Source of the DNA: Demequina sp.
GTDB lineage: Bacteria > Actinomycetota > Actinomycetes > Actinomycetales > Demequinaceae
Assembly: GCA_030148645.1 (NCBI GenBank)
Contig: JASBTB010000007.1
Coordinates: 12,571-76,570, forward strand
Reading direction: 5' to 3'
Length of the DNA: 64,000 bases
Shown: one piece after another, positions 3,755 to 27,547 of the stretch
Layout: every line of letters begins with the position of its first letter
Numbering within the stretch: position 1 is the stretch's first letter
The notes under the pieces: model-generated
What the model saw: the letters and a program-made list of their open reading frames with translations, nothing else
Told to the model about the DNA's origin: nothing
The model's database searches: none
Position numbers and translations under genes: made by a program

Positions 3755-5773
3755 ATGAGTACTGGTGCGACAACGCCGCCCCAGGTCGTTGCGCCCAACG
3801 TGGCGCGACCTACCCGACGTCGATGGTGGCAGACGCCCGAGATGGTCACCTTGGCCGTCGCCGCGGTGCTGCTGGTGGCCGGGCTGGTGGTGGAGTGGAC
3901 GATCCACTCCGAACCGGTGGCCCTGGCCCTGTTCTGGGGCGCGATCCTCACCGGTGGCGCCTACCCGCTGCGCAGCGCCATCCGGGCGGTGCGCAACAAG
4001 CGGCTGACGATCACCGTGCTGCTGGTCGTGGCGGCCATCGGCGCGATCGCGCTGGGGGTGGTCGAGGAGGCGGCATTCCTCGTGGTCATCTTCAGCCTCG
4101 GTGAGGCGATGGAGGCCTACGCCACCGACAAGGCACGCGGGTCCATCAGCGCGCTGATGGCGCTGGCACCACCGACCGCCAACCTGATCACCTCCGCGGA
4201 GGGCACCGAAACCGTGGCCGTGGATCGGCTCCACCCCGGCCACGTCGTCCTCGTGCGCCCCGGTGAGCGGCTGCCCACCGATGGCACCGTCGTCCAGGGC
4301 GCCTCATGGGTCGACGCCAGCCCGGTGACTGGGGAATCTGTGCCGGTCGAGGCCACCACGGGGACCGAGGTCTTCGGCGGGAGCCTGAACGGCAACGGCG
4401 TGCTGCACGTACAGGTCACCAAGGAGTACTACGACACGGTCCTGGCCCGGGTGATCGAACAGGTCGAGGAGGCCCAGGCCAACCGCAGCGGCGCCGAGCG
4501 CTTCGCGGACAAGTTCAGCGCCGTCTACACCCCGGCCATGTTCATTCTGGCGATCCTGGTGGCCGTAATCCTGCCACTTCTCGGCTTCGAGTGGCGGGAG
4601 GCGATCTACCGGGCGCTGGTTGTCCTGGTCGTCTCGTGCTCGTGCGCCTTGGTGATCTCCGTGCCCGTCAGCGTGGTCACCGCGATCGCTCGTGGGGCGA
4701 AGGACGGCATCCTGATCAAGGGCGGGGTCTACCTTGAGCGCCTGGCGGACATCAAGGCGGTCGCCTTCGACAAGACCGGCACCCTGACCCGGGGCAAGCC
4801 CGCCCTCGCCCGCGTGGTGCCGTTCGGTGACACCCACGAGGACGAGGCCCTGGCCCTGGCGGCCGCGGTCGAGGCCGGCAGTGAGCACCCCATCGCCACC
4901 GCCATCGTCACCGGCGCCCGCGACCGCGGCCTGACCGTCCCGACCGCACACCACGCCCGCGCCCTGCCCGGGACCGGCATGGAAGCCACCGTCAACGGTC
5001 GCGCCCTGCACATCGGCCGCCCCAGCGACGCCGATCGCGCCCACCGTGAGCTTGGCCGCGCTCTGGCTCAGGCGGAGGCCGAGGGCTGCACCGCTGTCGT
5101 GCTTCGCGAGGGCACCCAGCCGCTCGCAGTGGTGGCTGTGGCCGACCAGCTACGCCCCGACGCCAAGACCGCCGTCGCTGAGCTCCGCTCCCTCGGGATC
5201 GACCGGGTCATGATGCTCACCGGCGACAACGACACAGTCGCCCGATCTACCGCGCAGGCCCTCGGACTGGACGACTACCGGGCCGAGCTGCTCCCAGAGG
5301 ACAAGTCCACCGCGGTGCACGAGCTGCGCGAGAAGTACGGCGTGATCGCGATGGTCGGCGACGGCGTCAACGACGCCCCTGCCCTGGCCAACGCGGACCT
5401 GGCCATCGCGATGGGCGCCGCCGGCACCGATGTCGCTCTGGAGACCGCCGACGTGGCGCTCATGGCCGACGAACTCGACCGGCTCCCTGCCGCGATCCGC
5501 CTGTCGCGCCGCGCGCGGAACAACATCAAAATCAACATCGCGCTGAGCCTGGCCGTCGTTGCCGTGCTCATCGTTGCCGCCCTGGCGGGATGGATGTCCC
5601 TGACAATCGGGTTACTCCTCAACGAGGCGAGCGCGGCATTGATCATCCTCAACGGCCTGCGCATGCTCCGCCCCGGCCGCGGCGAAACCCGCAACCCCGC
5701 GACGGGCAAGACCGCCTCGACGCCCGCTCGTGAAGATCATCCCGGTACGGATCTGAACGGTGCCGACACATGA
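3755..5773 (+). CDS. Heavy-metal P1B-type ATPase (CadA/ZntA-like) without an N-terminal metal-binding domain
   Basis: TGES, SCSCALVIS, DKTGTLT, SEHP, MLTGDN and GDGVNDAPALA motifs. Confidence 0.95.
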   Translation: MSTGATTPPQVVAPNVARPTRRRWWQTPEMVTLAVAAVLLVAGLVVEWTIHSEPVALALFWGAILTGGAYPLRSAIRAVRNKRLTITVLLVVAAIGAIALGVVEEAAFLVVIFSLGEAMEAYATDKARGSISALMALAPPTANLITSAEGTETVAVDRLHPGHVVLVRPGERLPTDGTVVQGASWVDASPVTGESVPVEATTGTEVFGGSLNGNGVLHVQVTKEYYDTVLARVIEQVEEAQANRSGAERFADKFSAVYTPAMFILAILVAVILPLLGFEWREAIYRALVVLVVSCSCALVISVPVSVVTAIARGAKDGILIKGGVYLERLADIKAVAFDKTGTLTRGKPALARVVPFGDTHEDEALALAAAVEAGSEHPIATAIVTGARDRGLTVPTAHHARALPGTGMEATVNGRALHIGRPSDADRAHRELGRALAQAEAEGCTAVVLREGTQPLAVVAVADQLRPDAKTAVAELRSLGIDRVMMLTGDNDTVARSTAQALGLDDYRAELLPEDKSTAVHELREKYGVIAMVGDGVNDAPALANADLAIAMGAAGTDVALETADVALMADELDRLPAAIRLSRRARNNIKINIALSLAVVAVLIVAALAGWMSLTIGLLLNEASAALIILNGLRMLRPGRGETRNPATGKTASTPAREDHPGTDLNGADT

Positions 5774-6686
5774 TGGTCTCGGCAACGATCGGTTCTTTCC
5801 GGTCCTCGCCCGCACCCGAACAATCCACCGCCCCCTTGGTCCGGTTGCTTATGACTGTGTGAAGTTGATCTTCGTCCGGCACGGTTCGGCGGTCCTGCTC
5901 AGTGAGTTCGGCGAGAAACCCGTCACGACCGGCGACATCGTGATGTTGGGAGCGAACACGCTGTGCGGGAGCGAGCCTGAGGGCTCGATCACCGTCACGA
6001 CGCTCTACCTGGATAGTGACTACGTGATCGCCCAGGTGTTCTGGCAGCACGCCGCTGTGCTGTCCGACCGTCTCGATGCGCAGGACTTCATGAACGAGCG
6101 GTACTCCGAACCGGCCCAGATACTGCACCTAGGTGAGGATCAAGCCGGCATGCTCATGCCCTGGCTGGACGAGCTGGTCGCCCTCAGCATCGATGGACCC
6201 GCACCGGAACGCTTCTACCGCCTCCAAGCACTCCTGTTCGCGGTGCTCGACGTGATCACCCCGTACGTCGCCACCACCCCAGTGCGGGAGACGTCGACAC
6301 AGCGCAAGGCCACCCACCCCGGCCTGCCTCGCCGCCGCCACTTCACCCCGCTTCGGGCCGAGGCACGTGAGGCAGCGGAGCTTCTCCGCGACGCGCCAGC
6401 GCAGCGATGGACGCTACACGGGCTTGCTGCCGCCGTGCACCTGTCGTCGTCCCAGCTCGGCCGGGTCTTTACCGATGCCTACGGCCAGACACCCATGACG
6501 TACCTGACGACCCGGCGCGCCGAACAGCTGGCTCGGTCGCTGCGCGAGACGGACATGCCGATCGAGGTAGCGATGCGCCAGGTGGGCTGGCACAGCCGCG
6601 GCCACGCCGCCCGGATGTTCCGCCAATGCGTCGGAGTCACGCCCGCCCGGTACCGCGAACTCAGCCGCCAGAAGACGGTGACCTGA
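5760..6686 (+). CDS. AraC family transcriptional regulator (start uncertain)
   Basis: C-terminal dual HTH: WTLHGLAAAVHLSSSQLGRVFTDAYGQTP...VGWHSRGHAARMFRQCVGVTPARYR. Confidence 0.88.
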   Translation: MPTHDGLGNDRFFPVLARTRTIHRPLGPVAYDCVKLIFVRHGSAVLLSEFGEKPVTTGDIVMLGANTLCGSEPEGSITVTTLYLDSDYVIAQVFWQHAAVLSDRLDAQDFMNERYSEPAQILHLGEDQAGMLMPWLDELVALSIDGPAPERFYRLQALLFAVLDVITPYVATTPVRETSTQRKATHPGLPRRRHFTPLRAEAREAAELLRDAPAQRWTLHGLAAAVHLSSSQLGRVFTDAYGQTPMTYLTTRRAEQLARSLRETDMPIEVAMRQVGWHSRGHAARMFRQCVGVTPARYRELSRQKTVT

Positions 6687-6855: not shown

Positions 6856-6874
6856 CCGGCGCACCTGATGGTCA
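6856..6874 (+). promoter_or_regulatory. ICE motif copy 2 (GGCGCACCTGATGGTC-A) upstream of the ArdC-like operon
   Basis: CACCT at 6862-6866, then gatggtc, then A; function inferred. Confidence 0.45.
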
Positions 6875-8044: not shown

Positions 8045-8988
8045 TGGCCGCCACGGACGCGCTCGCGGGTGCGCTGACGCAGATGACCGGGCCATGGCCG
8101 GTCTTCGCCGCAGCACGAGAACTCGCCGCCGCAGGTGTGCCGGTGTTCCCGTGCGTGCCGGGCGGGAAGCGTCCGCTCACCGAGCACGGGTTCCACGACG
8201 CCACCACCGATCCTGGCCAGGTGGAGGCCTGGTGGCGGACGCACCCGGAGGCGAACCTCGCTGTCCCCACCGGCGCCACCTCCGGGATGGTGGTGGTGGA
8301 CGTCGATGTCCACGCCCCCACCGACGGGTACAGGGCGTTCGAGCGCGCCCACCGTGCCGGCCTCGTGTTGAGGTGGGCGTTCCTGGTGTCCACGCCGTCG
8401 GGCGGGATGCACGCCTACTACCCGGCGACACCTGAACGGGCACAGCGGTCCTGGCAGGCTGCGCGCGCCGGTGTGGACTTCCGTGGCGACGGCGGCTACA
8501 TCCTCATCCCACCCTCGATGGTGTCCACCAACGGTGCCGCTGTCGGCTACCGGGTACGGCAGATCAACACCGGCCCCTCGGCGACGCTGGATTCGGACCG
8601 GCTGCGGGACTTCCTCGACCCGCGCCCGACGTCCCCGCCCAGGACGGGCCACGATGTGCAGCCGCCCGTGGATGTGTCGCGGCTGGCGACGTGGGTCGCT
8701 GCCCGCGGCGAAGGGGAACGGAACCGGGGCCTGTTCTGGGCCGCCTGCCGACTGGCCGAGAACGGTGTCCCGGCCCCCGATGCGCTCGATGTACTCGCGG
8801 CCGCGGCCTCGGAATCGGGGCTGGGCGAGCGGGAGATCACCGCGACCGTCCGCTCGGCCTACCGCACCACCCAACCCCAAGCCCGCCCTTCGCCGCCGGT
8901 GGAACGCGGCGCGCCTGGGGCCGCGGACGGGTGGTTTGCTCGCGATGCGACCGTGCGTCCGTCCGCTCCGATGCGGGGGCTGTCATGA
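8041..8988 (+). CDS. Bifunctional DNA primase/polymerase (prim-pol)
   Basis: VPVFPCVPGGKRPL..HGFHDATTD...ANLAVPTG...VVVDVD...TPSGGMHAYY...DFRGDGGYILIPPS; C-terminal GERNRGLFWAAC. Confidence 0.9.
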   Translation: MMAATDALAGALTQMTGPWPVFAAARELAAAGVPVFPCVPGGKRPLTEHGFHDATTDPGQVEAWWRTHPEANLAVPTGATSGMVVVDVDVHAPTDGYRAFERAHRAGLVLRWAFLVSTPSGGMHAYYPATPERAQRSWQAARAGVDFRGDGGYILIPPSMVSTNGAAVGYRVRQINTGPSATLDSDRLRDFLDPRPTSPPRTGHDVQPPVDVSRLATWVAARGEGERNRGLFWAACRLAENGVPAPDALDVLAAAASESGLGEREITATVRSAYRTTQPQARPSPPVERGAPGAADGWFARDATVRPSAPMRGLS

Positions 8989-9803
8989 CCGTCCCGACCA
9001 GCCCGACGAGTCGACGGTGGGCGGTGATCACGGCGGTCGCCGGGACGGTGTTCATCGCCGCCGGCGCGTTCTGGCTGTCGTTCACGGCGTTGGCGGACCT
9101 GGCCGCACGCTCCGGGGTCGGCGAGTCGCAGGCATGGGCGTGGCCGCTGATCGTCGACGGCATCATCGTCGTGGCCACCGTCGCCGTCGTCGCCCTGGCC
9201 GGCCAGCGGTCGGCGTGGTACCCGTGGGCGTTACTGATCGGCGGCGCGGCCGTGTCGGTGACCGCCAACGCGATCCACGCCGTGGTGGCAGCCGATGCGG
9301 ACGTTCCCGGAGTGCTGGCGGCTGCGGTGGCGGCGGTGCCGCCAGTGGTGCTGCTGGCGATCACCCACCTGACCGTCATCCTCACCCGCCCGCAACTCGC
9401 CGCCGAGGCACCCGCATCCACCGACGAGTCCGCGATCGAAGCCGCAGCGATCGAGGAGCCCGCCCCGAACGCAGCGCGGGAGCCGGTATCTGAGGTGACA
9501 CCACCAGATGGCGTGGAAGCCACCGCGCTGTCGGCGCCGACCCCGCAGGAGAACGACCCCGTCGCAACTCCCGGGACGAGGCAGGCATCAGCGGACCGGC
9601 GCGCTGACCCGCAGGTCGATGCAGCGGCGGATTCCGCCGACCGGCGCGCGCGGGCAGCGACGCTGCGCGGGCAGGGATGGTCGAACAAGAAGATCGCCCG
9701 CGAACTGGGCGTGCACCCGTCCACGGTGGGCCGGTGGTTCACCAGCGCGCACCTTCCCAATACCACCGAACACGCCGATGCCGAGGAGGCGAAGGACGCA
9801 TGA
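8985..9803 (+). CDS. DUF2637-like membrane protein with a C-terminal HTH
   Basis: AFWLSFTALADLA...AWAWPLIVDG...VTANAIHA transmembrane block; GWSNKKIARELGVHPSTVGRW. Confidence 0.75.
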   Translation: MTVPTSPTSRRWAVITAVAGTVFIAAGAFWLSFTALADLAARSGVGESQAWAWPLIVDGIIVVATVAVVALAGQRSAWYPWALLIGGAAVSVTANAIHAVVAADADVPGVLAAAVAAVPPVVLLAITHLTVILTRPQLAAEAPASTDESAIEAAAIEEPAPNAAREPVSEVTPPDGVEATALSAPTPQENDPVATPGTRQASADRRADPQVDAAADSADRRARAATLRGQGWSNKKIARELGVHPSTVGRWFTSAHLPNTTEHADAEEAKDA

Positions 9804-10210
9804 ATCCCGACCACGACCACCAGCAGCAGGAACCTCGCCGGAGACCGCCGGAGCCGGGGACCGATCACCCGCCGTCGACGCCAGCCGAGAAGATGGAGAC
9901 ACCAGAGGCCGTGCGAGCGGCGAAGATCGCTGGTCTCCGGGGCAACAGCCGTGAGTGGCTCGCCCACGATGCGGGCCTGCGTGCGCGGGGGGTGGAGTGG
10001 GTGCGGCCTACGGACCTGCTCGCCCGCCACGGCGCGGCGCTGGCGGGGCGGGGCATCGACTTCGAGGTCGAGTTGGCTCGCCGCACCCGCACCGCCACGA
10101 ACACCGGTGTGCGGGGGTTCGGGGATCGGGCGCGCCGGCTGCCGCCGCTGTCGGCCTTCGGTCGCAGCAGGACAACCGAGTCCGTTCCGTCGCGGTCGCC
10201 GGTCGGATGA
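9800..10210 (+). CDS. ICE hypothetical protein
   Basis: ATGA overlap with the upstream stop and GGAGG upstream. Confidence 0.6.
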   Translation: MNPDHDHQQQEPRRRPPEPGTDHPPSTPAEKMETPEAVRAAKIAGLRGNSREWLAHDAGLRARGVEWVRPTDLLARHGAALAGRGIDFEVELARRTRTATNTGVRGFGDRARRLPPLSAFGRSRTTESVPSRSPVG

Positions 10211-10273
10211 GCTGAACAGGTGAGAGGTCATGAGCACCACCCGGGCACGGAGCGCAAACGTCGTCGTTGGGGA

Positions 10274-10296
10274 CGGCGTGCGCACCTGCCTGTCAG
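10274..10296 (+). promoter_or_regulatory. ICE motif copy 3 (GCGTGCGCACCTGCCTGTC-A)
   Basis: CACCT at 10283-10287, then gcctgtc, then AGGAGG and ATG 10311. Confidence 0.5.
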
Positions 10297-10310
10297 GAGG
10301 TGCCCCCACC

Positions 10311-11210
10311 ATGACCGAGAACACCCACACCACCAATCACCGGAGAACCGAGAACGGCGAGGACTTCACGAGCAGCGAAGGTCTACGCGCGCTGCTGACT
10401 CGACTCCACGATGCCGGGCCGGGCGCGTGGGAGCACGACCGGACCGCCGCGGCACTGATGGCCTACGCGGCGGAGAAGTACGCGCCACTGGCGCATAAGC
10501 ACGGCCTGGACCCCTGGGAGGCCGCCACCGCAGCATTCGACGTGATGCGCACCACAGCAGCCCGGGAGGCGAATGATCCGTGGGCGGTGATCACCCACGC
10601 GGTACGGATCACCTGCATCTTCGAAGAACGCGCCCAAGGACTCCTGTGCTCGGTCCACCAAGCCCGCCGCCCGCACATCTCAGCGTTCCACGACCCCGAA
10701 CGCTTCTCCGACCGGGAGAACCCGCTGGCCGACTACCACCCCGCATTCCAGATCACCGATGACACCCCGGCCACGGATGAGGAGAACGACGGCGCGCCCG
10801 CGTCGTCGCGGGCGCGCACGTGGGCGGGCTCCACGGTCGAGGACGCCATCGCGTTGTTCACGCTGCTGGACTGGCCGCCAGCCAGCGCGCGCGCCGGGAT
10901 CGAGCACATGTGCGGGGCGCTGACCAAGACCGGCACCCGCCAGGCCACCTACGAGGCGCTGCGCCGCGACAAGCACGCCCGCGCCCTGCTCGACATCCCC
11001 GGCCACTCCTGGACGGCGCTGTTGAAGGCGCTGCTGGGTAACCCCCACCCCGCCTACGCCGCCACGACCGCGGGCCGGGGCGTGCTGCTGCGGCTGCTGA
11101 TCGGCGAGAGCCTGCCGGTGCTGCTGCGCGACGACGACCTCGTGCTCACCATCTCCCTGGCAGCACCCGCCCACCGCAACCGGAAGCCCCGTGGGGGCGG
11201 GTCGCGATGA
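10311..11210 (+). CDS. ICE hypothetical protein, possibly a divergent sigma-70-like factor
   Basis: AGGAGG before ATG 10311; LMAYAAEKYAPLAHKHGLDPWEAATAAFDVM...DPWAVITHAVRITCIFEERA resembles sigma region 2 by eye only; the confidence is for the CDS, not the sigma call. Confidence 0.7.
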   Translation: MTENTHTTNHRRTENGEDFTSSEGLRALLTRLHDAGPGAWEHDRTAAALMAYAAEKYAPLAHKHGLDPWEAATAAFDVMRTTAAREANDPWAVITHAVRITCIFEERAQGLLCSVHQARRPHISAFHDPERFSDRENPLADYHPAFQITDDTPATDEENDGAPASSRARTWAGSTVEDAIALFTLLDWPPASARAGIEHMCGALTKTGTRQATYEALRRDKHARALLDIPGHSWTALLKALLGNPHPAYAATTAGRGVLLRLLIGESLPVLLRDDDLVLTISLAAPAHRNRKPRGGGSR

Positions 11211-12217
11211 GCACGCGGGCGGGATTTATCGAGCTGGAACGCACCGTCGCCTCGATCCAGGTGGGGCGCCGACACCGCACCGAGCTGGGCGACATCGACG
11301 AACTGGCGGCCTCCATCGACCGCGACGGCCTCCTCCAACCCATCACCATCACCCCCGACGGCGTACTCGTGTGCGGGGCCAGGAGGCTGACCGCGATCAG
11401 ACAGCTCAGCTGGAAGACCGTCAACGTGTGGGTCCGCTCGGGCATCTCCGACCGGCTCGGTCACCTCTTGGCCGAGCAGGACGACAACGTCCTGCACAAA
11501 CCCCTGACCCAGACCGAGGCCGCCGCCCTCTACCGCGAGCTGAGGGCGTTGATGGCAGAGGACGCCGCCCGAAGAAAGGCAGCGACGCAGTTCAGCGCCG
11601 CCAATCAGCCAGGTGCTGACGGTCCCGCAAAATTTGCGGGACCGTCACAGGCTCCGGGCGAGGCCCGCCAACAGGCGGCGGCGATGATCCCCGGCGGTGT
11701 CTCCCACACCACATTGGAGAAGATCGGCTACCTCCAGAGGATCGCCGACGACCCCGCCCAGCCCGCCGCGCTACGGGCGCAAGTGACCGCGGAACTGGAG
11801 CGCATCGACGCCGGCGCCCCGGTGCACCCGATCTACGAAGTAATCCGCGCCTCCGCCGAGACCGCTCAGAAGCATCGTGAGGCAGACCTGCACCAGCTCG
11901 CCGCCGAAGCGCTGACCCGCGCCAAGAACGCGAAAGCAAAGAAGCGCGCCCCCCGATCCGCACGACCAGCCGACGACGCTGGTGAGCCGGCGCCATATCC
12001 CGTGCGGGCGTTCGTGCTGACCTGGACCGAACTGATCGACTGGTGGACCCACTACGACGCCGACCAGCTCGTCGCCGAACTCACCGATGAGCAGATCGAG
12101 TCCTTCCTCGCCACCGCTGAAGGCACCAGCAAGTTCGCCGAGGAGCTGCGTACCGCCCGCGACCGCCGGGCGGGTGACGAGACCCCGCCCGCACGGGGGC
12201 ACCTGCGCGCCCTCTGA
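11207..12217 (+). CDS. ParB N-terminal-domain protein
   Basis: IDELAASIDRDGLLQPITITPDGVLVCGARRLTAIRQL (ParB/Srx motif). Confidence 0.88.
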   Translation: MSTRAGFIELERTVASIQVGRRHRTELGDIDELAASIDRDGLLQPITITPDGVLVCGARRLTAIRQLSWKTVNVWVRSGISDRLGHLLAEQDDNVLHKPLTQTEAAALYRELRALMAEDAARRKAATQFSAANQPGADGPAKFAGPSQAPGEARQQAAAMIPGGVSHTTLEKIGYLQRIADDPAQPAALRAQVTAELERIDAGAPVHPIYEVIRASAETAQKHREADLHQLAAEALTRAKNAKAKKRAPRSARPADDAGEPAPYPVRAFVLTWTELIDWWTHYDADQLVAELTDEQIESFLATAEGTSKFAEELRTARDRRAGDETPPARGHLRAL

Positions 12218-12239
12218 GCATTTGGTTGACTGCGGATGC

Positions 12240-12260
12240 TCGCGGTGCACCTACAGGGCA
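12240..12260 (+). promoter_or_regulatory. ICE motif copy 4 (GCGGTGCACCTACAGGGC-ATG), leaderless geometry
   Basis: CACCT at 12248-12252, 7 nt, then ATG 12260; no SD sequence. Confidence 0.5.
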
Positions 12261-12967
12261 TGAAGACTCCCGACCTGTCTGCCCCGCGTTCGCGTCACCG
12301 GCTGATCGCCGCCCTCGCCGCCCTCGTGGCGGTCCTGGTGCTGGCCGGTGTCGGCGTCTACGGCCTCCTCAACGGACCACCCACCGCCAACGAGGACGCC
12401 AACCGCGGCTCCGGGCCTGGACCGGCTGTGACCGCACCCAGCGATCCGGCGTTCGGCGATCCGGCCCCGACCGCGACACCGCGTCTGCCAACGGTGCGGG
12501 CCTCGGCTGATCCGGAGACCTTCGCCCGCGCCGTCGCGACGGCGCTGTTCGCCTGGGACACGGCCAGCGGGTTCATGCCCCTGGACTACACCTCGGTCGT
12601 CCTCGCCGTCGGCGACCCCTCGGGTGCCGAGCAGGCCGGGCTCGCCTCCGACATCGCCACCTACCTGCCGAACCGGGACGCCTGGATCGAGCTGCGCCAC
12701 TACGCCACCGCCCAGCACCTGATCATCGACCGTGTGTACGTCCCCGACGCGTGGGACGCGGCCGTCGAACAGGCGCAGCCCGGGCAGCTCGCCGAGGGCA
12801 CCATCGCCTACACGATCGAGGGAACCCGCCACCGCACCGGCCTCTGGAACGACGAGACCGTCACCTCCGAGCATCCGGTGGCGTTCACCGTGTTCCTCGT
12901 CTGCGGCCCGACCTACGACACCTGCCACCTGCTGCGGTTGTCCCAGCTCGACAACCCCCTCCGATAG
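12260..12967 (+). CDS. Membrane-anchored conjugation protein (possibly VirB8/TcpC-like)
   Basis: N-terminal TM LIAALAALVAVLVLAGVGVYGLL; lies directly before the wall hydrolase; role inferred from position. Confidence 0.65.
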   Translation: MKTPDLSAPRSRHRLIAALAALVAVLVLAGVGVYGLLNGPPTANEDANRGSGPGPAVTAPSDPAFGDPAPTATPRLPTVRASADPETFARAVATALFAWDTASGFMPLDYTSVVLAVGDPSGAEQAGLASDIATYLPNRDAWIELRHYATAQHLIIDRVYVPDAWDAAVEQAQPGQLAEGTIAYTIEGTRHRTGLWNDETVTSEHPVAFTVFLVCGPTYDTCHLLRLSQLDNPLR

Positions 12968-20441: not shown

Positions 20442-21031
20442 CGCGGATCACGTGCGCCGCCCCCGCCGGATGTGCCGGGTGCACTGGGGGTCTCGGTCGT
20501 GTAGGCGAGGGTGGTGAGGTGGTTCGCGATCCTGGCCCGCATAGAGGGGTGCAGGGGTGTGGTGAGGGACTCGATGAGCCAGAGCCCGTCGGCGGCCAGG
20601 CGGGCGATGAGCTGGCTCAACTCACCCGGGGAGATGTCTGCATGCTCGGGCAGTGGCGGGGTCCACCGGGCCAGGACCCCGTTCCAGGGGGCGTGCATGG
20701 CGGGGTCGTTGACGGTTTCGAGCATCAGCAACAACTCGGCCCGGGTCGCGCTGTGGGTCGCGACCTGGGCGTAGGCGGCCAGACGCTCAGCATCACTGGC
20801 CCGTTCGGCGGGTTTGCCCGCGGCCTCGGTGAGAGCGGTCTCCCACTGTTCGGCGAGGTGCTCGTGCAGCGCCTGCAGCATGACCTCGCGGGTGCCGAAG
20901 TGATACAGCAGCCCGCCTTTGGTCATGCCCGCGGCCTCGGCCACGGCCTCGAAGGTCACCGCGGTGACCCCGCCGGCCTCGATCACCCCCAGGGCCGCAT
21001 CGAGGATCTCGGTCCGCTTGCTGGGACGCAT
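20438..21031 (-). CDS. TetR family regulator
   Basis: MRPSKRTEILDAALGVIEAGGVTAVTFEAVAEAAGMTKGGLLYHF. Confidence 0.93.
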   Translation of the reverse strand: MRPSKRTEILDAALGVIEAGGVTAVTFEAVAEAAGMTKGGLLYHFGTREVMLQALHEHLAEQWETALTEAAGKPAERASDAERLAAYAQVATHSATRAELLLMLETVNDPAMHAPWNGVLARWTPPLPEHADISPGELSQLIARLAADGLWLIESLTTPLHPSMRARIANHLTTLAYTTETPSAPGTSGGGGARDPR

Positions 21032-21056
21032 AGCCTCTGCCTCCACTCCCGCCCGG

Positions 21057-22559
21057 TCAGTGGTTGCCCGAGAAGGCCTGCGACTGAGTCCCCGGCCCGT
21101 GGTGGCGCAGCAACCGTCCGGTGACCGCGGCCCCGACCGCCAGGACCACGGCGAGGATGATCATCGTGACCAAGAACCCGGTGTCGAAGGCACTGCTCGC
21201 CGCCTCGATGATCGCCCGGTCCCCGCCCGCTGTCGCCAGCGCATCCGACAGGCTCTCGTGCGCACCCTCCGGCGCGCCGGCCGGGAGCCGCACGGTGGTG
21301 GTGTAAACGAAGGTGAGCAGGCTGCCCAACAACGCGACAGCGGTCAGGGACCCGAACTCATACGACACCTCCTCGACCGAGGACGCCATCCCGGCACGGC
21401 GGGCGGGCACATTGCCCACAATCGCGGTCGAGGCCACCGACATCGCCCCACCCAGCCCGGCGCCGGTAACCAGCAGCCCGGCAACCAACACACCGAACAC
21501 GTCGGCCTGCACACCGATGATCACCACGACCACCCCGAGCGAGGCGACCGCAAGGCCCCCGGCGATCAACGGCAGCAGGCCGATCCTGTGCAGGAACGCC
21601 CCGCCCAACAGCGCGGTGGGCAGCGACCCGATCGCGACCGCCGCGACCAGCAGCCCGGCCTCCAGGGGGGTGAAACCCTCCACAAGCTGATACCGCTGGG
21701 TCGTGACCAGCTGGGACCCGCCGATCGCGAACATCGAGAACGCCGCCGCCAGCACCCCGGCGCTGAACGCGGGATTGCGGAAGATCGAGAACTCCAGCAG
21801 CGGCTGCTCCAAGCCCCGCTGACGGCGGACGAACAGCACCGACCCGACCACCGCGGCCACCAAGCCCGCACCAACGATCACCCAGTTCTGCGGGGAATGC
21901 GCGAGCTCCTTGATGAAGAACACCGCACCCACCAGCGCGACCATCGCCTGCAACGACGACACCAGGTCCCACCTCTTGGACGGGTCGGGGTCGTTGGGCG
22001 GTGCGATCAGCACCGCCGCGATCAACGCGGCGATCACCACGGGCACGTTGATCAGGAACACCGAGCCCCACCAGAAGTGCTCCAGCAGCACCCCGCCCAC
22101 GATCGGGCCCAGCGCCGCACCCACCACCGCAAGGCTCCCCCACACCGCGATCGCGAAATTGCGCTCACGCTCAACCTCGAACGAGACCCGGATCAGCGCC
22201 AGCGTGGCCGGCATCATCGCCGCCGCGCCCACCGCCAGCACCGCACGCGCCGCGATCAGCAGACCCGCCGACGGCGCGAACGCCGCCCCCAACGACGCCA
22301 CCCCGAACACCACCAGACCGATCAAAAACATCCGCCGGCGCCCGATCCGGTCCCCCAGCGTGCCCGAGCCCAGCAACAGGCCCGCCATCACCACCGGATA
22401 GGCGTTGATGATCCACAAGCTCTGCGACCCCGACGCCCCCAACTCCTCGGTCAACGTCGGCAACGCCGTATACAGGATCGAGTTGTCCAGAGTGATCAAC
22501 AGCAGCCCCGCCGCCACCGTCACCAGCAGACCCCACCGCTGCCGCTTGCTCAAACTCAC
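21057..22559 (-). CDS. 14-TM DHA2-type MFS efflux pump
   Basis: LITLDNSILYTALP, WIINAYPVVMAGLLL..GTLGDRIGRR, WGSVFLINVP. Confidence 0.93.
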   Translation of the reverse strand: MSLSKRQRWGLLVTVAAGLLLITLDNSILYTALPTLTEELGASGSQSLWIINAYPVVMAGLLLGSGTLGDRIGRRRMFLIGLVVFGVASLGAAFAPSAGLLIAARAVLAVGAAAMMPATLALIRVSFEVERERNFAIAVWGSLAVVGAALGPIVGGVLLEHFWWGSVFLINVPVVIAALIAAVLIAPPNDPDPSKRWDLVSSLQAMVALVGAVFFIKELAHSPQNWVIVGAGLVAAVVGSVLFVRRQRGLEQPLLEFSIFRNPAFSAGVLAAAFSMFAIGGSQLVTTQRYQLVEGFTPLEAGLLVAAVAIGSLPTALLGGAFLHRIGLLPLIAGGLAVASLGVVVVIIGVQADVFGVLVAGLLVTGAGLGGAMSVASTAIVGNVPARRAGMASSVEEVSYEFGSLTAVALLGSLLTFVYTTTVRLPAGAPEGAHESLSDALATAGGDRAIIEAASSAFDTGFLVTMIILAVVLAVGAAVTGRLLRHHGPGTQSQAFSGNH

Positions 22560-22584
22560 GTCATCACACCTTTCCGGAACCGAA

Positions 22585-22638
22585 CTATCACCACCCGTAA
22601 CTATACCATACGTACGATACAGTTACGACTGGTGATAG
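22585..22638. promoter_or_regulatory. Long imperfect palindrome, probable TetR operator upstream of the MFS
   Basis: CTATCACCAcccGTAACT...AGTTACgacTGGTGATAG with central ATACGTAC. Confidence 0.7.
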
Positions 22639-22825
22639 GTGGCCGGGCTCCACACCAGCCTTGAACGCACAACCCGGACCCTCAGAAAGACACCGAAGCG
22701 GACAGCGCGCACGTGCAGCAGTCCCAACAGAGCCTCCCGAGAACCGGCACACCACCCGTCGCAACAGCCGCACCAACGCCCCACCCAGCTGACGCCCCCT
22801 GCACCCCGATGCACACCTGAACAGC

Positions 22826-23633: not shown

Positions 23634-25118
23634 GTGATTGCGGTGGGTGTGTGCGATGTTCCCATCATCTCGACCCTGTGCGACACCGCCGGCGAAGCAG
23701 CGGCCTCGCTGGTGGCGGCGCCGTTCGACTGGCTCGCCCAAGCAATGGGCGCTGCCGCCGGTTGGCTGTTCGAAGCCGTGTGGACGGTGTTCGACACCAC
23801 CACCTTGGTGGATGTCACCCGGCCCGAGTACGTAGCGGTCTACAACATCTTGTTCGGCATCGCGGTGTTCGTGATGCTGATCTTCTTCTGTCTCCAACTC
23901 ATCACCGGTCTGATCCGCCGCGACCCCACCGCCCTGGGTAGGGCTGCGCTCGGTCTGGCGAAGTCCGTGCTCGGCAGCTTCGTCGTCATCACCCTGACGG
24001 CGTTGTTGCTGGAGATCGTGGATCAGTTGTGCGTCGGGATCATCCAGGCCGCCGGGGAGACCACCGAGTCGATGGGCGACAAGATCACCCTGCTGGCCGC
24101 GGGACTGGTCGGCATCAACATCGCCGCGCCCGGGGTGGGCGCGATCATCACGATCTTCCTCGCCGGCCTGGCCATCAGCGCGGCCGCGATCGTGTGGCTC
24201 TCCCTGCTCGTGCGGAAGGCGCTGCTGTTGGTGGCGATCGTGCTCGCACCCCTGGCGTTCTCCGGCGCGTCCTGGGATGCCACGCGGGGGTGGATCGGCA
24301 AGTGGGCGATGTTCGTCATCGCCCTGATCTGTTCCAAGCTGGTCCTGGTCGTGATGTTCCTCGTCGCCGTCACCCAGGTGGCCGCGCCGATCGATGGCGA
24401 TCTGTCCTCGGTCAGCGATCCGATTGCCGGGATCGTGCTGATGGCGATGGCCGCGTTCGCCCCGTATCTGACGTACAAGTTCCTGTCGTTTGTGGGCTTC
24501 GACATGTACCACGCGATCGGGTCCGAGCAGGACGCGAAGAGCGCCCTCAACCGGCCCATCCCGACACCGATGAAACCGGCCGGTGACGGCCCGCAGAAGG
24601 TCCTCGACGGAGGCAACAGCGGCAGCGGCGGGGGCGGCAACAGCGGTGGCGGCGGTGGGAGTGGGAGCGGTGGGAAGACCCCGCCTCAGCCGAAGAGTCC
24701 GACACCCCAGGCCGCGGGGAGCACTGCCGGGGCAGGCGGAGGGAAAGCCGCCGCCGCAGGCGGCGGGTCCGCCGGCGCGAGCGGCACAGCCGGAGCTGGT
24801 GCAGGTGCTGGTGCCGGGGCTGCGGTGGCTGGTCCGGCTGCAGCGGCGGTGGTCGCCGCGAAGGTCGCCAAGGACGCCGCCACCGCCGGCCCCAAGGCCG
24901 GCACCGCCCTCGGCAGCCAGGGCGAGACCGCCGCCGACGCCGCCGGGCAAACCGGCAGCGCCCCACCGCCATCACAGGCGCCCCCGCCATCGAACCTCAC
25001 GCCCAAGCCGTCGTCCACGTCGGCACCCGTGGCACCGTCGACCGGTCCCTCCCAGCCGGAGCCGCGCCCGCCGAAGCTGCCACCACCACCGGCGCCGAAG
25101 CCCACTGGGAAGGAGTGA
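23634..25118 (+). CDS. TrbL/VirB6-like polytopic membrane protein with a Gly/Ala/Pro-rich tail (start may be GTG 23643)
   Basis: Multiple TM segments, LLVRKALLLVAIVLAPLAF, low-complexity C-terminus. Confidence 0.85.
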   Translation: MIAVGVCDVPIISTLCDTAGEAAASLVAAPFDWLAQAMGAAAGWLFEAVWTVFDTTTLVDVTRPEYVAVYNILFGIAVFVMLIFFCLQLITGLIRRDPTALGRAALGLAKSVLGSFVVITLTALLLEIVDQLCVGIIQAAGETTESMGDKITLLAAGLVGINIAAPGVGAIITIFLAGLAISAAAIVWLSLLVRKALLLVAIVLAPLAFSGASWDATRGWIGKWAMFVIALICSKLVLVVMFLVAVTQVAAPIDGDLSSVSDPIAGIVLMAMAAFAPYLTYKFLSFVGFDMYHAIGSEQDAKSALNRPIPTPMKPAGDGPQKVLDGGNSGSGGGGNSGGGGGSGSGGKTPPQPKSPTPQAAGSTAGAGGGKAAAAGGGSAGASGTAGAGAGAGAGAAVAGPAAAAVVAAKVAKDAATAGPKAGTALGSQGETAADAAGQTGSAPPPSQAPPPSNLTPKPSSTSAPVAPSTGPSQPEPRPPKLPPPPAPKPTGKE

Positions 25119-25125
25119 GACGGCC

Positions 25126-26589
25126 ATGACCTCGAAGCAGAACGAGCCCTCGACCGCGCTGGTGCCGGTCAAGTTCTCCCGCTTGACTCGCCGCGGCATC
25201 CTCCTCGGCCTCTCCTTATCCCAACTCATCACCCTCGCCACCGGTGTCCTTTCGGTCGTAGTCGCGCTCTATGCAGGCGGCGGCATCCTGCTGGCCTACA
25301 CCGCGCCCGCCTGGGTACTCTCCGCCGCCCTGACGTGGGTACCGGTCGCCGGGCGCCCGGCAGTCGAGTGGCTGCCGGTCACGTTCTGGTGGGTATGGCG
25401 TTCCACCGGCGGCCAGCTCCTGTACCGGCGCAGGATCGTTGTCCCGCGGCCGGCCGGCACGCTCGCGTTGCCCGGCGATATGGCGCGCTTGCGGGAGTAC
25501 ACCGACCCCCAGACCGGGGCCGGGATGATCCACGACCCCACCGCCGCCACCCTCACCGTCGTCTGTGAGGTGACCCATCCCGCGTTCGTACTGCTCGATC
25601 CCGGCGAGCAGGAACGCCGCGTCACCTCGTGGGGCCGCGTGCTGGCCACGGTCTGCCGCTCCGGGCGGATCGCCACCCTCCAGGTGCTGGAACGCACCCT
25701 GCCGGACTCGGGCACCGGACTGGCCGAATGGTGGGCCAGCCACGGCACCCACGATGACACGTGGGCCGCGATCACCTACGCCGAACTCATCGACCGAGCC
25801 GGTCCCGCCGGGGAACGCCACGCCACCACCCTGTCCCTGAGCCTGGACATGAAGACCAGCGCGCGGCAGATCAGGACCGCCGGCGGCGGCATCCGCGGCG
25901 CCGCCGCCGTGCTGCGACAGGAGATGTCCACCCTCACCTCGGCGCTGCGCTCAGCCGACCTGACCCCATCAGGCTGGCTGACCCCCGGACAGATCGCCGT
26001 CATCCTCCGCGGCACGTACGACCCAGCGGTCGCCGCGACCCTGGAACGCCACGGCGAACTCGGCCAGCACCTCGCCACCGCCGGGCCGGTGGCCGTCAAC
26101 GAGTCCTGGACACGCCTGCGCACAGACTCCGCCTACCACGCCGTTCTGTGGATCAGCGAGTGGCCCCGCTCCATGGTCTACCCCGGCTTCCTGTCCCCGG
26201 TGCTGCTCTCCACCGGCATCCAGCGCTCATTTTCGCTGCTGTGCACGCCGATGCGCTCGGACCAGGCGGCCCGGGACATCCGCAAGAAGAAGGTCGAACA
26301 CATCAGTGACGCCGCCCAACGCGCCAAGATCGGGCAGATCGAAGACGCCGCCCACACCGCCGAATACCACGACGTCCTCCAGCAGGAAGCCGACCTGACC
26401 GCCGGCCACGGCGTGCTGCGCTACACCGGCCTCATCAGCGTCTCCGCACCCACCGTCGACGAACTCGACGCCGCCGTGGCCGCGATCGAACAAGCCGCCA
26501 TCCAAGCCTCCTGCGAGACCCGGCTGCTGGTCGGCCAGCAGGCCGCGGCGTTCACCGCCGCCGCGTTGCCGCTGTGCCGCCACATCTGA
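25126..26589 (+). CDS. PrgI / SCO6880-like conjugation protein
   Basis: VKFSRLTRRGILLGLS...two TMs...LWISEWPR; AAGGAG upstream; lies between VirB6 and VirB4. Confidence 0.8.
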   Translation: MTSKQNEPSTALVPVKFSRLTRRGILLGLSLSQLITLATGVLSVVVALYAGGGILLAYTAPAWVLSAALTWVPVAGRPAVEWLPVTFWWVWRSTGGQLLYRRRIVVPRPAGTLALPGDMARLREYTDPQTGAGMIHDPTAATLTVVCEVTHPAFVLLDPGEQERRVTSWGRVLATVCRSGRIATLQVLERTLPDSGTGLAEWWASHGTHDDTWAAITYAELIDRAGPAGERHATTLSLSLDMKTSARQIRTAGGGIRGAAAVLRQEMSTLTSALRSADLTPSGWLTPGQIAVILRGTYDPAVAATLERHGELGQHLATAGPVAVNESWTRLRTDSAYHAVLWISEWPRSMVYPGFLSPVLLSTGIQRSFSLLCTPMRSDQAARDIRKKKVEHISDAAQRAKIGQIEDAAHTAEYHDVLQQEADLTAGHGVLRYTGLISVSAPTVDELDAAVAAIEQAAIQASCETRLLVGQQAAAFTAAALPLCRHI

Positions 26590-26686: not shown

Positions 26687-27547
26687 ATGCCCACGTTCCA
26701 TGACCCGCTCAAAGATGCCGCTGAAGCATCCGAAGCGCTGCGCGGCCTCGCGCACGCCAGCCGGGTCTTCGACGATCCCGCCGACACGTACGTGGTGTTC
26801 GGTGACCTCGTGGCCGGCGTCCGGTCGCTGCGGCAGGTTCTCGACCAGCTCGCCAACACGCATCTGAGCCACCGCGACCGTGCCCACAATGACGACGGCG
26901 ATCACCTCGCAGGATCGGACAGCGTGTTCGCTGCCGCCGACGAGCTGCACCACGCCGGCACCCTGCTCGACCAGGCCCAGGACCGCCTCGATGCCGCGTT
27001 CTCCCATTCGGGGCGGATCGCCTGGCACCCCGAGCCCGCTATCTCAACTGAGGTCCTCGCCGAGGACGCAGAGCGTCGGTGGGTCTCCGTGGTGTTCCTC
27101 CAGGGCGAGGAGGCCGAGGAGGTGCTGGCCCTGATTGACCGCGAGGGCACCGACACCGCGATCACCCACCTCGCTCAGTGGGACTTCGGGGAGGAGACCA
27201 CCGACGCCGCCATGGAGAACGGCTACGTCTACGACGCACCCCCGACCGGCGCCCTCGACCGGGTCGCGACCGAGGGCGCCTACGCCCTGACCTACAACCC
27301 GGCCATGGGGCACGTCAGCCTGCTGCGCCAGCACACCGTCCCACCCGATCTAGCCTTGGATGACGCCGAGGTGGTGCCCGTCCGTGAAGCCATCGCCGGC
27401 GTCGGTCCCCTCGACACGAGCACACCTGCCGCCACGCCCGTCACGACGCGGGAGGGGCCGCTGCGGACATCTCCCGCGACGAAGGAGGACTGGTTCGTCG
27501 GACCCGCCCGCACCGCTGGATCGACAGGACTGGGGCTGTCCCGATGA
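26687..27547 (+). CDS. Hypothetical protein between PrgI and VirB4
   Basis: AGGAG before ATG 26687; ATGA overlap with VirB4. Confidence 0.7.
   Translation: MPTFHDPLKDAAEASEALRGLAHASRVFDDPADTYVVFGDLVAGVRSLRQVLDQLANTHLSHRDRAHNDDGDHLAGSDSVFAAADELHHAGTLLDQAQDRLDAAFSHSGRIAWHPEPAISTEVLAEDAERRWVSVVFLQGEEAEEVLALIDREGTDTAITHLAQWDFGEETTDAAMENGYVYDAPPTGALDRVATEGAYALTYNPAMGHVSLLRQHTVPPDLALDDAEVVPVREAIAGVGPLDTSTPAATPVTTREGPLRTSPATKEDWFVGPARTAGSTGLGLSR

What the first reader, a model, noticed from the sequence alone, without database searches (positions are those of the whole stretch)
10311..11210. Candidate ICE-encoded divergent sigma-like factor that could read the motif
Seen: the gene has its own motif copy upstream (10283) and is coupled to parB. 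The segment AGPGAWEHDRTAAALMAYAAEKYAPLAHKHGLDPWEAATAAFDVM...DPWAVITHAVRITCIFEERA follows the helix pattern of sigma-70 region 2, and RALLDIPGHSWTALLKALLG looks like an HTH recognition helix. Established: some conjugative elements encode dedicated master activators (SetCD in SXT/R391, AcaCD in IncC). Inference: this protein may be an autoregulated master switch for actinobacterial T4SS ICEs. The upstream AraC gene (5760) is the alternative candidate.
Basis: inference. Interest (0 to 1): 0.75.

Follow-up and report, generated by a model that had tools for sequence, protein, structure and literature searches.

The report
Possible hidden sigma-like ICE regulator
This 299-residue protein of unknown family sits in the backbone of a widespread actinobacterial conjugative element; its first half is predicted to fold like the promoter-opening domain of sigma factors, and its gene is joined to a ParB-like gene, so it may be the element's own transcription switch, though no experiment or significant score shows this yet.

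Summary
The gene is real: 10311-11210, 299 aa, more than 1,500 homologue clusters, all annotated as hypothetical. A conserved GCGCACCTG motif lies upstream at 10280. The stop overlaps the start of a ParB-like gene (ATGA).

Sequence methods find no sigma relationship. Pfam gave no sigma or HTH hit in any of 60 family members. hhalign against the host's own sigma factors gave 0.03%, against 94.8% for the control. Profile searches of PDB sequences found nothing.

AlphaFold gives two confident all-helical domains joined by a disordered acidic linker. A Foldseek search with the N-domain alone found nothing significant (best E 5.3). However, 9 of its 11 weak hits are sigma region-2 domains, including sigmaE region 2 bound to -10 DNA (TM 0.47/0.58, rmsd 3.4 Å) and T4 gp55. 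The C-domain and the proposed HTH remain unassigned.

The motif behaves like a private core promoter. It is strand-specific and sits at orthologous sites. It lies exactly 7 nt before SD-less ATGs. No host regulon uses it and no standard sigma gene is on the element.

My best reading (about 0.4) is a sigma2-like promoter-specificity partner of the ParB-like CTPase. The closest working analogue is BisDC of ICEclc, not SetCD/AcaCD.

The parts
10311..11210 (+). Target gene: 299-aa conserved hypothetical protein (P0001). N-domain about residues 18-118, linker 119-163, C-domain 164-284.
   Evidence: Translation. More than 1,563 homologue clusters. 319 clusters at 50% identity. AlphaFold mean pLDDT 85.2, with both domains about 95-98.
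10359..10730 (+). N-terminal domain (residues 17-140) with predicted sigma region-2-like topology
   Evidence: Domain model pLDDT 89.8, pTM 0.79. In Foldseek against the PDB, 9 of 11 hits are sigma2 domains. Best is 2MAP, E 5.3, TM 0.47/0.58, rmsd 3.4 Å. Nearly invariant D89-P90-W91 and T95 lie at the start of the long helix.
10665..10799 (+). Disordered linker. The proximal part carries a conserved motif (A118 R119 ... R131: ARRxxxxxxHDxxRFxDRE). The distal part is variable and acidic.
   Evidence: pLDDT 50-60. Conservation and net charge -3.4 in the variable part.
10800..11162 (+). C-terminal all-helical domain (residues 164-284) with no assigned fold.
   Evidence: pLDDT 92-97. No Pfam, PDB or HH match. 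Invariant W188, W234 and G243.
10267..10288 (+). Private promoter-like motif upstream of the target: TTGGGG (10267-10272), 7 nt, then GCGCACCTG (10280-10288)
   Evidence: Logo TGGg-N7-GYGCACCTG from 121 distinct instances. Same place in 23 distinct loci. 153 plus-strand against 17 minus-strand copies in the related loci.
10295..10300 (+). Predicted transcription start (A 10295), which is also the first base of the Shine-Dalgarno AGGAGG. ATG follows at 10311.
   Evidence: C14/A15 of the motif register coincides with the c-ATG of the SD-less genes.
11207..12217 (+). Translationally coupled ParB-like gene (336 aa) with the GARRLTA arginine patch
   Evidence: ParB_N 26.4 bits. Noc/Spo0J matches in the PDB, E 4e-4. 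Sequence. ATGA overlap.
11617..11647 (.). Perfect 15+1+15 palindrome inside the ParB-like gene. Candidate clamp-loading (parS/bisS-like) site, or an oriT/ssDNA hairpin.
   Evidence: Conserved in position in 28 loci, with 9 of 15 pairs changed on both sides. 93.6% of cells paired against 76.8% in shuffles. DNA fold -18.6 kcal/mol, z -6.5.
12245..12262 (+). Next motif copy: GTGCACCT, 7 nt, then ATG 12260 of the downstream membrane-protein gene, with no SD
   Evidence: The exact N7 spacing is kept in about 25 distinct loci.

Best explanation
The protein is the promoter-specificity half of a two-gene master regulator carried by a family of actinobacterial T4SS-type ICEs.

Proposed mechanism, step by step:
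- Its N-domain has a sigma region-2-like fold (predicted). It recognises the element's private core-promoter word, GG-N10-GCACCT, which lies at about -25 to -7 (inferred). It may do this as a very divergent sigma that docks on RNA polymerase, or as a promoter-bound factor.
- Its conserved linker motif and C-domain contact the co-translated ParB-like CTPase and/or RNA polymerase (inferred).
- The ParB-like protein loads at the conserved palindrome inside its own gene and slides along the ICE DNA (inferred by analogy with BisD).
- The pair's operon has its own motif copy, so the pair would activate its own expression as well as the other motif-bearing operons (inferred).

Shown here: the gene, its conservation and synteny, the motif and its geometry, the predicted two-domain fold, the sigma2-only list of weak structural neighbours, and the ParB-like CTP-motif partner with its palindrome.
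For: - The motif behaves like a core promoter. It is strand-specific (153 against 17) and sits at orthologous intergenic sites. It lies exactly 7 nt before SD-less ATGs in about 25 loci. Register position 15 is a purine in 111 of 121 instances.
- No sigma-70-type promoter is found in 9700-12400.
- No host regulon with the motif is evident. The genome has 466 copies, most of those inspected apparently inside genes.
- No backbone ORF matches a sigma family above a Pfam cut-off. Only the DUF2637 protein's generic HTH touches Sigma70_r4_2, below cut-off (E 0.002).
- In the N-domain Foldseek search, 9 of 11 hits are sigma region-2 domains: sigmaE r2 with -10 DNA, SigE NTD, SigI1, RpoS r1.2-2, T4 gp55, SigH and sigmaS. 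TM reaches 0.58-0.61 and rmsd 3.4 Å.
- Sigma factors also recur among the weak full-length hits in the PDB and BFVD.
- The layout is two helical domains joined by a linker of about 45 residues.
- The most conserved residues (D89, P90, W91, T95) sit in the loop and helix start that correspond to the -10-reading part of sigma2. This mapping is inference.
- The pairing with a ParB-like gene carrying GxxR is conserved even at 33% identity.
- There is experimental precedent for a ParB-like clamp plus a promoter-bound partner that activates ICE promoters and itself: BisD/BisC (PMC12409273).
Against: - No significant score exists anywhere. Foldseek best E is 5.3 for the domain and 0.89 for the full length.
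- Pfam, NCBIfam and PHROGs give nothing. No sigma or HTH family hits any of 60 members at E<=1.
- hhalign against host sigma profiles gives 0.03%, against 94.8% for the positive control.
- The region-2.2 acidic/Gln residues that sigma factors use to bind the beta-prime clamp helices appear replaced by conserved alanines (reading).
- The C-domain has no sigma4 or HTH signal and is not basic.
- Other backbone proteins of unknown function were not modelled, so they are not excluded as the motif reader.
- TM of about 0.5 between small helical bundles can arise by convergence.
- There is no transcript or binding evidence.
Confidence: 0.4

Rival explanations
1. The protein is a DNA-handling partner of the ParB-like protein and not a transcription factor. 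The pair would act on the conserved palindrome inside the parB-like gene as a ParA-less partition or clamping module, or as relaxosome/oriT accessory proteins. Something else would read the promoter motif.
For: - Strict gene pairing and ATGA coupling.
- A strongly covarying palindrome or hairpin inside the operon.
- No relaxase of a known Pfam family was found in the backbone, so the oriT machinery is unassigned.
- The linker carries a conserved peptide typical of partner binding.
Against: - The protein has no ATPase or P-loop and no nuclease or HUH motif (sequence; Pfam).
- This does not explain why the N-domain's only structural neighbours are sigma2 domains.
- The domains are not basic.
Confidence: 0.25
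2. Another factor reads the motif: the backbone AraC-family protein (5760-6686), the DUF2637/HTH_23 membrane protein (about 8985-9803), or a host alternative sigma. The target is merely one of the regulated genes, for example an establishment or anti-defence protein of the ArdC/PrimPol/SSB neighbourhood.
For: - AraC and the HTH protein have bona fide DNA-binding domains and are just as conserved in synteny.
- The two conserved blocks of the motif, about one helical turn apart and containing GCAC, recall the two-HTH sites of MarA-type proteins (my own knowledge of marbox geometry).
- The target has no detectable DNA-binding family.
Against: - The motif covers about -27 to -7 at genes whose ATG follows 7 nt later, a position for a core-promoter reader or a repressor, not an AraC-type activator.
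- No TANNNT-like -10 box is visible at those sites, and one search finds no sigma-70-type promoter in 9700-12400.
- No host regulon carries the motif.
- The element's hosts span many genera in several actinobacterial orders.
Confidence: 0.2
3. The sigma2-like domain is a decoy or modulator rather than a promoter reader. It could be a sigma mimic that titrates a host anti-sigma factor, as PhyR does, or an RNA polymerase-binding protein that reprogrammes the host holoenzyme without contacting DNA itself.
For: - PhyR appears among the weak full-length hits.
- The region-2.2-like residues are not conserved.
- The protein's domains are near-neutral or slightly acidic.
Against: - This does not explain the private promoter or the ParB-like coupling.
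- No receiver domain or anti-sigma partner is visible nearby.
Confidence: 0.08

Closest known systems
BisD/BisC of ICEclc (Pseudomonas): a ParB-like CTP clamp plus a promoter-bound activator (PMC12409273)
   Same: - An ICE-encoded gene pair in which one member is ParB-like with the GxxR CTP motif.
- A palindromic candidate loading site on the element.
- About 8-11 element-specific promoters that mostly point the same way.
- The pair's own operon carries the promoter motif, allowing positive feedback.
   Different: - The partner here has no FlhC/BisC similarity (no hit in 60 members) and instead has a sigma2-like predicted N-domain.
- Nothing links the extra C-terminal region of this ParB-like protein (336 aa) to BisD's activator domain.
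- The motif lies at the core promoter (-25 to -7). The BisC motif is a weak inverted repeat.
- The phylum differs (Actinomycetota) and so does the T4SS type.
- Nothing has been tested experimentally here.
Highly divergent sigma factors that keep little more than region 2, such as phage T4 gp55 (with gp33 and the gp45 sliding clamp)
   Same: - gp55 is among the structural neighbours (7d7c_F, TMq 0.40).
- The promoters have a -10-region word and no -35 box.
- The factor is linked to a DNA sliding clamp (ParB-like CTP clamp here, gp45 in T4).
   Different: - There is no sequence similarity.
- The T4 clamp is a PCNA-type ring loaded at nicks, not a ParB.
- The target has an extra 120-residue C-domain.
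- RNA polymerase binding is untested.
ECF (group 4) sigma factors
   Same: - Two helical domains joined by a linker.
- The best structural neighbour is sigmaE region 2 bound to -10 DNA (2MAP, TM 0.47/0.58).
- An invariant Trp lies at the start of the long helix.
   Different: - Sigma70_r2 and r4 profiles do not match, and hhalign gives 0.03%.
- The linker is about 45 residues.
- The C-domain is twice the size of sigma4 and has no HTH signature.
SetCD (SXT/R391) and AcaCD (IncC), FlhDC-type master activators
   Different: There is no FlhC or FlhD homology, the fold differs, and those systems have no ParB-like partner.
KorB-KorA of plasmid RK2
   Same: A ParB-family CTP clamp works with a small partner protein to control plasmid promoters. 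This is cited within PMC12409273.
   Different: KorAB represses. KorA is a 101-aa HTH protein (my own knowledge). There is no similarity to the target.

Membership tests
Sigma-70 family (including ECF) | Match to Sigma70 region 2 sequence profile | tested here: not met
   Pfam and NCBIfam: no hit. None of 60 members hits any sigma family at E<=1. hhalign against host ECF and group 1-3 sigma alignments gives Prob 0.03%, against 94.8% for the control. Profile searches of PDB sequences find no sigma.
Sigma-70 family (including ECF) | Sigma2 three-dimensional fold | tested here: inconclusive
   For the N-domain model, 9 of 11 Foldseek hits are sigma2 domains. TM is 0.31-0.50 by query and up to 0.58-0.61 by target, and rmsd is 3.4 Å over 91 columns. 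All E-values are 5-10.
Sigma-70 family (including ECF) | Region 4 helix-turn-helix domain | tested here: not met
   By sequence, no Sigma70_r4 or HTH profile matches any member and hhalign finds nothing.
Sigma-70 family (including ECF) | Binds RNA polymerase core and directs promoter-specific initiation | not testable with these tools
   This needs pull-down and in vitro transcription. No multimer prediction tool was available.
Sigma-54 family | Sigma54 core-binding and DNA-binding (RpoN box) domains | tested here: not met
   No Pfam or PDB-profile match. The host genome has no rpoN above the cut-off. Only the promoter geometry (GG-N10-GC) is reminiscent.
BisDC-type ICE activator pair | Adjacent ParB-like protein with a CTP-binding GxxR motif | tested here: met
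   ParB_N 26.4 bits. GARRLTA. Noc/Spo0J PDB matches at E 4e-4. Adjacency in all loci that reach that far.
BisDC-type ICE activator pair | Partner homologous to BisC/FlhC | tested here: not met
   No FlhC family hit in 60 members at E<=1.
BisDC-type ICE activator pair | parS-like loading site on the element | tested here: inconclusive
   A conserved, covarying palindrome lies at 11617-11647 inside the ParB-like gene. Binding is untested, and a hairpin/oriT reading is equally possible.
FlhDC-type activators (SetCD, AcaCD) | FlhC/FlhD domains | tested here: not met
   No such Pfam hit.
ParA partition ATPase (the usual upstream partner of ParB) | Deviant Walker A P-loop ATPase fold | tested here: not met
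   The sequence has no GxxxxGK[ST], no Pfam ATPase family matches, and the model is all-helical with no strands.

The most novel reading that the evidence does not exclude
Actinobacterial T4SS-type ICEs run a self-contained transcription system.
- A cryptic sigma2-like factor would read a private -24/-12-style promoter (TGG-N9-YGCACCT). This would occur in a phylum usually said to lack sigma-54 (my own knowledge; only this host genome was checked).
- The factor would be switched on only on ICE DNA by a ParB-like CTP sliding clamp that loads at a hairpin-forming palindrome inside its own gene.
- This would be a bacterial counterpart of the clamp-activated late transcription of phage T4 (gp55/gp33/gp45). 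It would also be a sigma-type version of BisDC.
Probability: 0.18. Interest if true: 0.88.

Novelty: new variant of a known kind. Interest (0 to 1): 0.62.

Why it matters
No regulator of the T4SS-type ICEs of Actinomycetota turned up in my literature searches. This backbone occurs in Micrococcales, Propionibacteriales and Mycobacteriales, including cheese, skin and environmental genera. The family has more than 1,500 protein clusters and is found in about 1% of species genomes sampled across the phylum.

- It would define a new, sequence-invisible branch of sigma-like factors.
- It would explain how one element expresses its transfer genes in many hosts.
- It would extend the recently discovered theme of ParB-like CTP clamps acting in transcription (BisD, KorB) to Gram-positive elements.
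- It would give a simple handle for switching transfer on or off: one gene pair and a 9-base word.

Tried and rejected
- **Anti-SD hairpin upstream of the target.** The idea was that GCACCT 10282-10287 pairs with AGGTGC 10298-10303. The fold is unexceptional (z -1.0; 32 of 200 shuffles fold as well). The inner spacer is not conserved or complementary across loci. Only one locus (L048) shows a compensatory change. Rejected as unsupported.
- **The ECF sigma fusion P0152 as evidence of sigma function.** P0152 is an ECF sigma (r2+r4) joined to the target's linker and C-domain. It is a single 4.4-kb read-assembly contig. The junction appears to cut the sigma just past region 4 and cuts the target inside its linker. 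The contig still carries a variant motif (GAGTACCT-N7-ATG). It is most likely an accidental or degenerate junction, and I did not use it as support.
- **Longer ORF from ATG 10230 (326 aa).** Not supported by homologue lengths or alignment.
- **AraC as activator through the motif.** Geometrically unlikely where the motif lies 7 nt before the ATG.
- **A host regulon using the motif.** Not seen.
- **Other searches that found nothing.** Known RNA families, defence-system profiles, phage homologues, and plasmids, where there was one hit only.
- **Alignment-based locus search.** It failed because no stretch was conserved enough. The single-protein search was used instead.

Full report
**What is at the coordinates**

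Bases 10311-11210 (+) encode a 299-residue protein. AGGAGG lies at 10295-10300, ahead of ATG 10311. The stop TGA (11208-11210) overlaps the ATG (11207) of the next gene.

A longer frame from ATG 10230 exists. It is not supported: homologues are 293-310 aa long and align from M1.

The surrounding genes, are:
- an AraC-family regulator (5760-6686)
- an ArdC-N/M78 protein
- a Prim-Pol
- a DUF2637 membrane protein with a C-terminal HTH_23
- a small ORF
- the target
- a ParB_N protein
- a membrane protein
- an M23 cell-wall hydrolase
- an inserted recombinase module
- further on, a weak AAA_10 match that may be a VirB4-like ATPase, a TraG/VirD4 coupling protein, an SSB and a large serine recombinase next to a tRNA

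This is the backbone of a T4SS-type integrative conjugative element of Actinomycetota.

**How conserved it is**

The protein has more than 1,563 homologue clusters, all 'hypothetical' or spuriously named. They come from Micrococcales, Propionibacteriales, Mycobacteriales and Actinomycetales. At 50% identity there are 319 clusters.

In 49 loci from species genomes the order is AraC, (ArdC), PrimPol, DUF2637-HTH, a small ORF, the target, ParB-like, a membrane protein and M23. This order is kept across many genera. The target/ParB-like adjacency holds even for relatives at 33-41% identity.

About 1% of evenly sampled genomes of the phylum carry the gene (3 of 400). No phage carries it and only one plasmid in PLSDB does.

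**Is it sigma-like by sequence? No.**
- Pfam, NCBIfam, PHROGs and PADLOC give nothing for the protein.
- None of 60 diverse family members hits any sigma, HTH or FlhC/FlhD family at E<=1.
- Profiles of the whole family and of the N-domain find no sigma among PDB sequences.
- hhalign of the family against alignments of the host's own ECF and group 1-3 sigma factors gives probability 0.03%. The positive control, ECF against group 1-3, gives 94.8%.

**Is it sigma-like by fold? Weakly, but specifically, for the N-domain.**

AlphaFold2 with a 60-sequence alignment gives two confident all-helical domains. They span residues 22-118 and 164-284, with pLDDT about 95-98. A disordered linker (119-163) joins them, and pTM is 0.52, so the two domains are independent.

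The full-length Foldseek searches have no significant hit. The best PDB hit is E 0.89 (Brf2) and the best BFVD hit is E 0.48. Their weak tails nevertheless contain many sigma factors.

I then modelled residues 17-140 alone (pLDDT 89.8, pTM 0.79) and searched the PDB. Only 11 chains reach E<=10, none is significant (best 5.3), and 9 of the 11 are sigma region-2 domains:
- sigmaE region 2 bound to its -10 element (2MAP; TM 0.47 by query, 0.58 by target; rmsd 3.4 Å over 91 columns)
- three chains of the SigE N-terminal domain (TM by target up to 0.61)
- SigI1
- an RpoS region 1.2-2 fragment
- T4 gp55
- SigH
- sigmaS

I therefore read this as real, though sub-threshold, support for a sigma2-like topology.

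- H22-35, then H39-56, corresponding to region 2.1
- H68-79, corresponding to region 2.2
- a loop with D89-P90, then the long helix W91-Q109, corresponding to regions 2.3/2.4

The nearly invariant D89, P90, W91 and T95 lie where sigma2 reads the -10 element. That mapping is my inference.

One point counts against it. The polar residues that sigma region 2.2 uses to bind the beta-prime clamp helices appear replaced by conserved alanines (A71, A74, A75).

**The C-domain and the proposed HTH**

Residues 221-227 and 231-242 are predicted as two helices joined by a short turn. No HTH profile matches them. The second helix is hydrophobic, with invariant W234 and G243, and the domain's mean net charge is about -1.

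It remains unassigned.

The linker has a conserved proximal peptide (ARR...HD..RF.DRE; R119 93%, R131 98%) in a low-confidence region. That suggests it folds on binding a partner.

**The motif**

GYGCACCT occurs on the gene strand at 6859, 10280, 12245, 18451, 23211, 26625 and 31402, and as a variant at 22812. In the related loci it is strongly strand-biased (153 against 17) and sits at orthologous intergenic places.

The logo from 121 distinct instances is TGGg-N7-GYGCACCTG, with C and then a purine at register positions 14 and 15.

- Upstream of the gene after the ParB-like gene, the word is followed by exactly 7 nt and then ATG, with no Shine-Dalgarno sequence, in about 25 distinct loci.
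- The same spacing holds for the two 15-codon ORFs.
- Upstream of the target the same register puts C-A on the first A of AGGAGG.

This is what a -10-region element with a fixed transcription start would give: leaderless mRNAs in some cases and short leaders in others. An earlier agent of this scan reached the same view on another genome. That is not independent evidence.

With the ATG as +1, the conserved GG falls at -25/-24 and the GC at -13/-12. That is the GG-N10-GC geometry of sigma-54 promoters. The host has no rpoN and the target has no sigma-54 features.

No sigma-70-type promoter is predicted in the region. The host genome shows no regulon using the word. No backbone ORF reaches a sigma-family cut-off. 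Something on the element therefore probably reads the motif, and the target is the only modelled candidate with any sigma-like feature. Only the target was modelled, so other unknown backbone proteins are not excluded.

**The partner and a new element inside it**

The ParB-like protein keeps the GxxR arginine patch (GARRLTA) and aligns to Noc/Spo0J N-terminal domains.

Inside its gene lies a perfect 15+1+15 palindrome (11617-11647). It is present at the same relative position in 28 loci, including the most distant relatives.
- The outer CGG/CCG triplets are invariant, while the inner arms vary freely but stay complementary.
- 93.6% of cells are paired, against 76.8% in shuffles and 33-50% in slid controls.
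- 9 of 15 pairs have changes on both sides.
- As DNA it folds at -18.6 kcal/mol, z -6.5.

It could be a clamp-loading site of the parS/bisS kind, with mirrored half-site changes. It could equally be a true hairpin, such as an oriT or a single-strand signal.

**Closest working precedent**

In ICEclc, the ParB-like CTP clamp BisD loads at bisS sites and slides over the element. Together with the promoter-bound BisC it activates about 11 ICE promoters, including its own operon (PMC12409273). That paper also cites KorB-KorA of RK2.

The present pair has the same logic on paper: a ParB-like GxxR protein, a palindrome, a set of private promoters and an autoregulatory copy. The partner is unrelated to BisC/FlhC, however, and has a sigma2-like domain instead.

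T4 gp55, a minimal sigma activated by a sliding clamp, is both a weak structural neighbour and a conceptual analogue.

**Verdict**

- A sigma2-like N-domain is plausible but unproven.
- The HTH is unsupported.
- SetCD/AcaCD is the wrong analogy.

I put about 0.4 on the target being the promoter-specificity partner of the ParB-like protein. I put about 0.25 on a purely DNA-handling role with ParB. I put about 0.2 on another factor reading the motif. I put under 0.1 on a sigma-mimic or modulator role.

Noticed in passing
window 11617-11647 (inside the ParB-like gene 11207-12217): A perfect 31-bp palindrome, TGACGGTCCCGCAAA-A-TTTGCGGGACCGTCA, is conserved in position in 28 related loci. The outer CGG/CCG triplets are invariant and the inner arms are hypervariable but always complementary. 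9 of 15 pairs change on both sides; 93.6% of cells are paired against 76.8% in shuffles; the DNA fold has z -6.5. It is a candidate parS/bisS-like loading site or an oriT/ssDNA hairpin.
   Followed up: yes
window 6859, 10280, 12245, 18451, 22812, 23211, 26625, 31402 (+ strand): With the SD-less ATGs taken as +1, the private motif places GG at -25/-24 and GC at -13/-12 (TGG-N9-YGCA). This is the geometry of sigma-54 promoters, yet the host genome has no rpoN.
   Followed up: partly
L060:212-1306 (protein P0152, read-assembly contig from SRR9691016): A single fusion ORF joins an ECF sigma (regions 2 and 4) to the linker and C-domain of this family, and a ParB_N gene follows. The contig keeps a variant motif, GAGTACCT-N7-ATG. 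It is probably an accidental or degenerate junction, but it is the only domain fusion found.
   Followed up: partly
window 5700-36000: No relaxase of a known Pfam family was detected among the backbone ORFs scanned. Several large ORFs (20919-22664, 24583-26589, 26687-27547) have no family at all.
   Followed up: no
window 10665-10750 (residues 119-146 of the target): The peptide ARRxxxxxxHDxxRFxDRExxLxDxxPA is conserved but lies in a region predicted disordered (pLDDT 50-60). A variable acidic stretch follows. It looks like a motif that folds when it binds a partner.
   Followed up: no
window about 8985-9803: The upstream backbone gene combines a DUF2637 membrane domain with a C-terminal HTH_23 (Pfam). 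PHROGs labels its relatives 'excisionase'. It is another unassigned regulator candidate.
   Followed up: no
window 11610-11616: CAGGTGC, the reverse complement of the motif core GCACCTG, abuts the 5' side of the palindrome in the window. It is only partly kept in other loci and may be a by-product of the coding sequence.
   Followed up: partly
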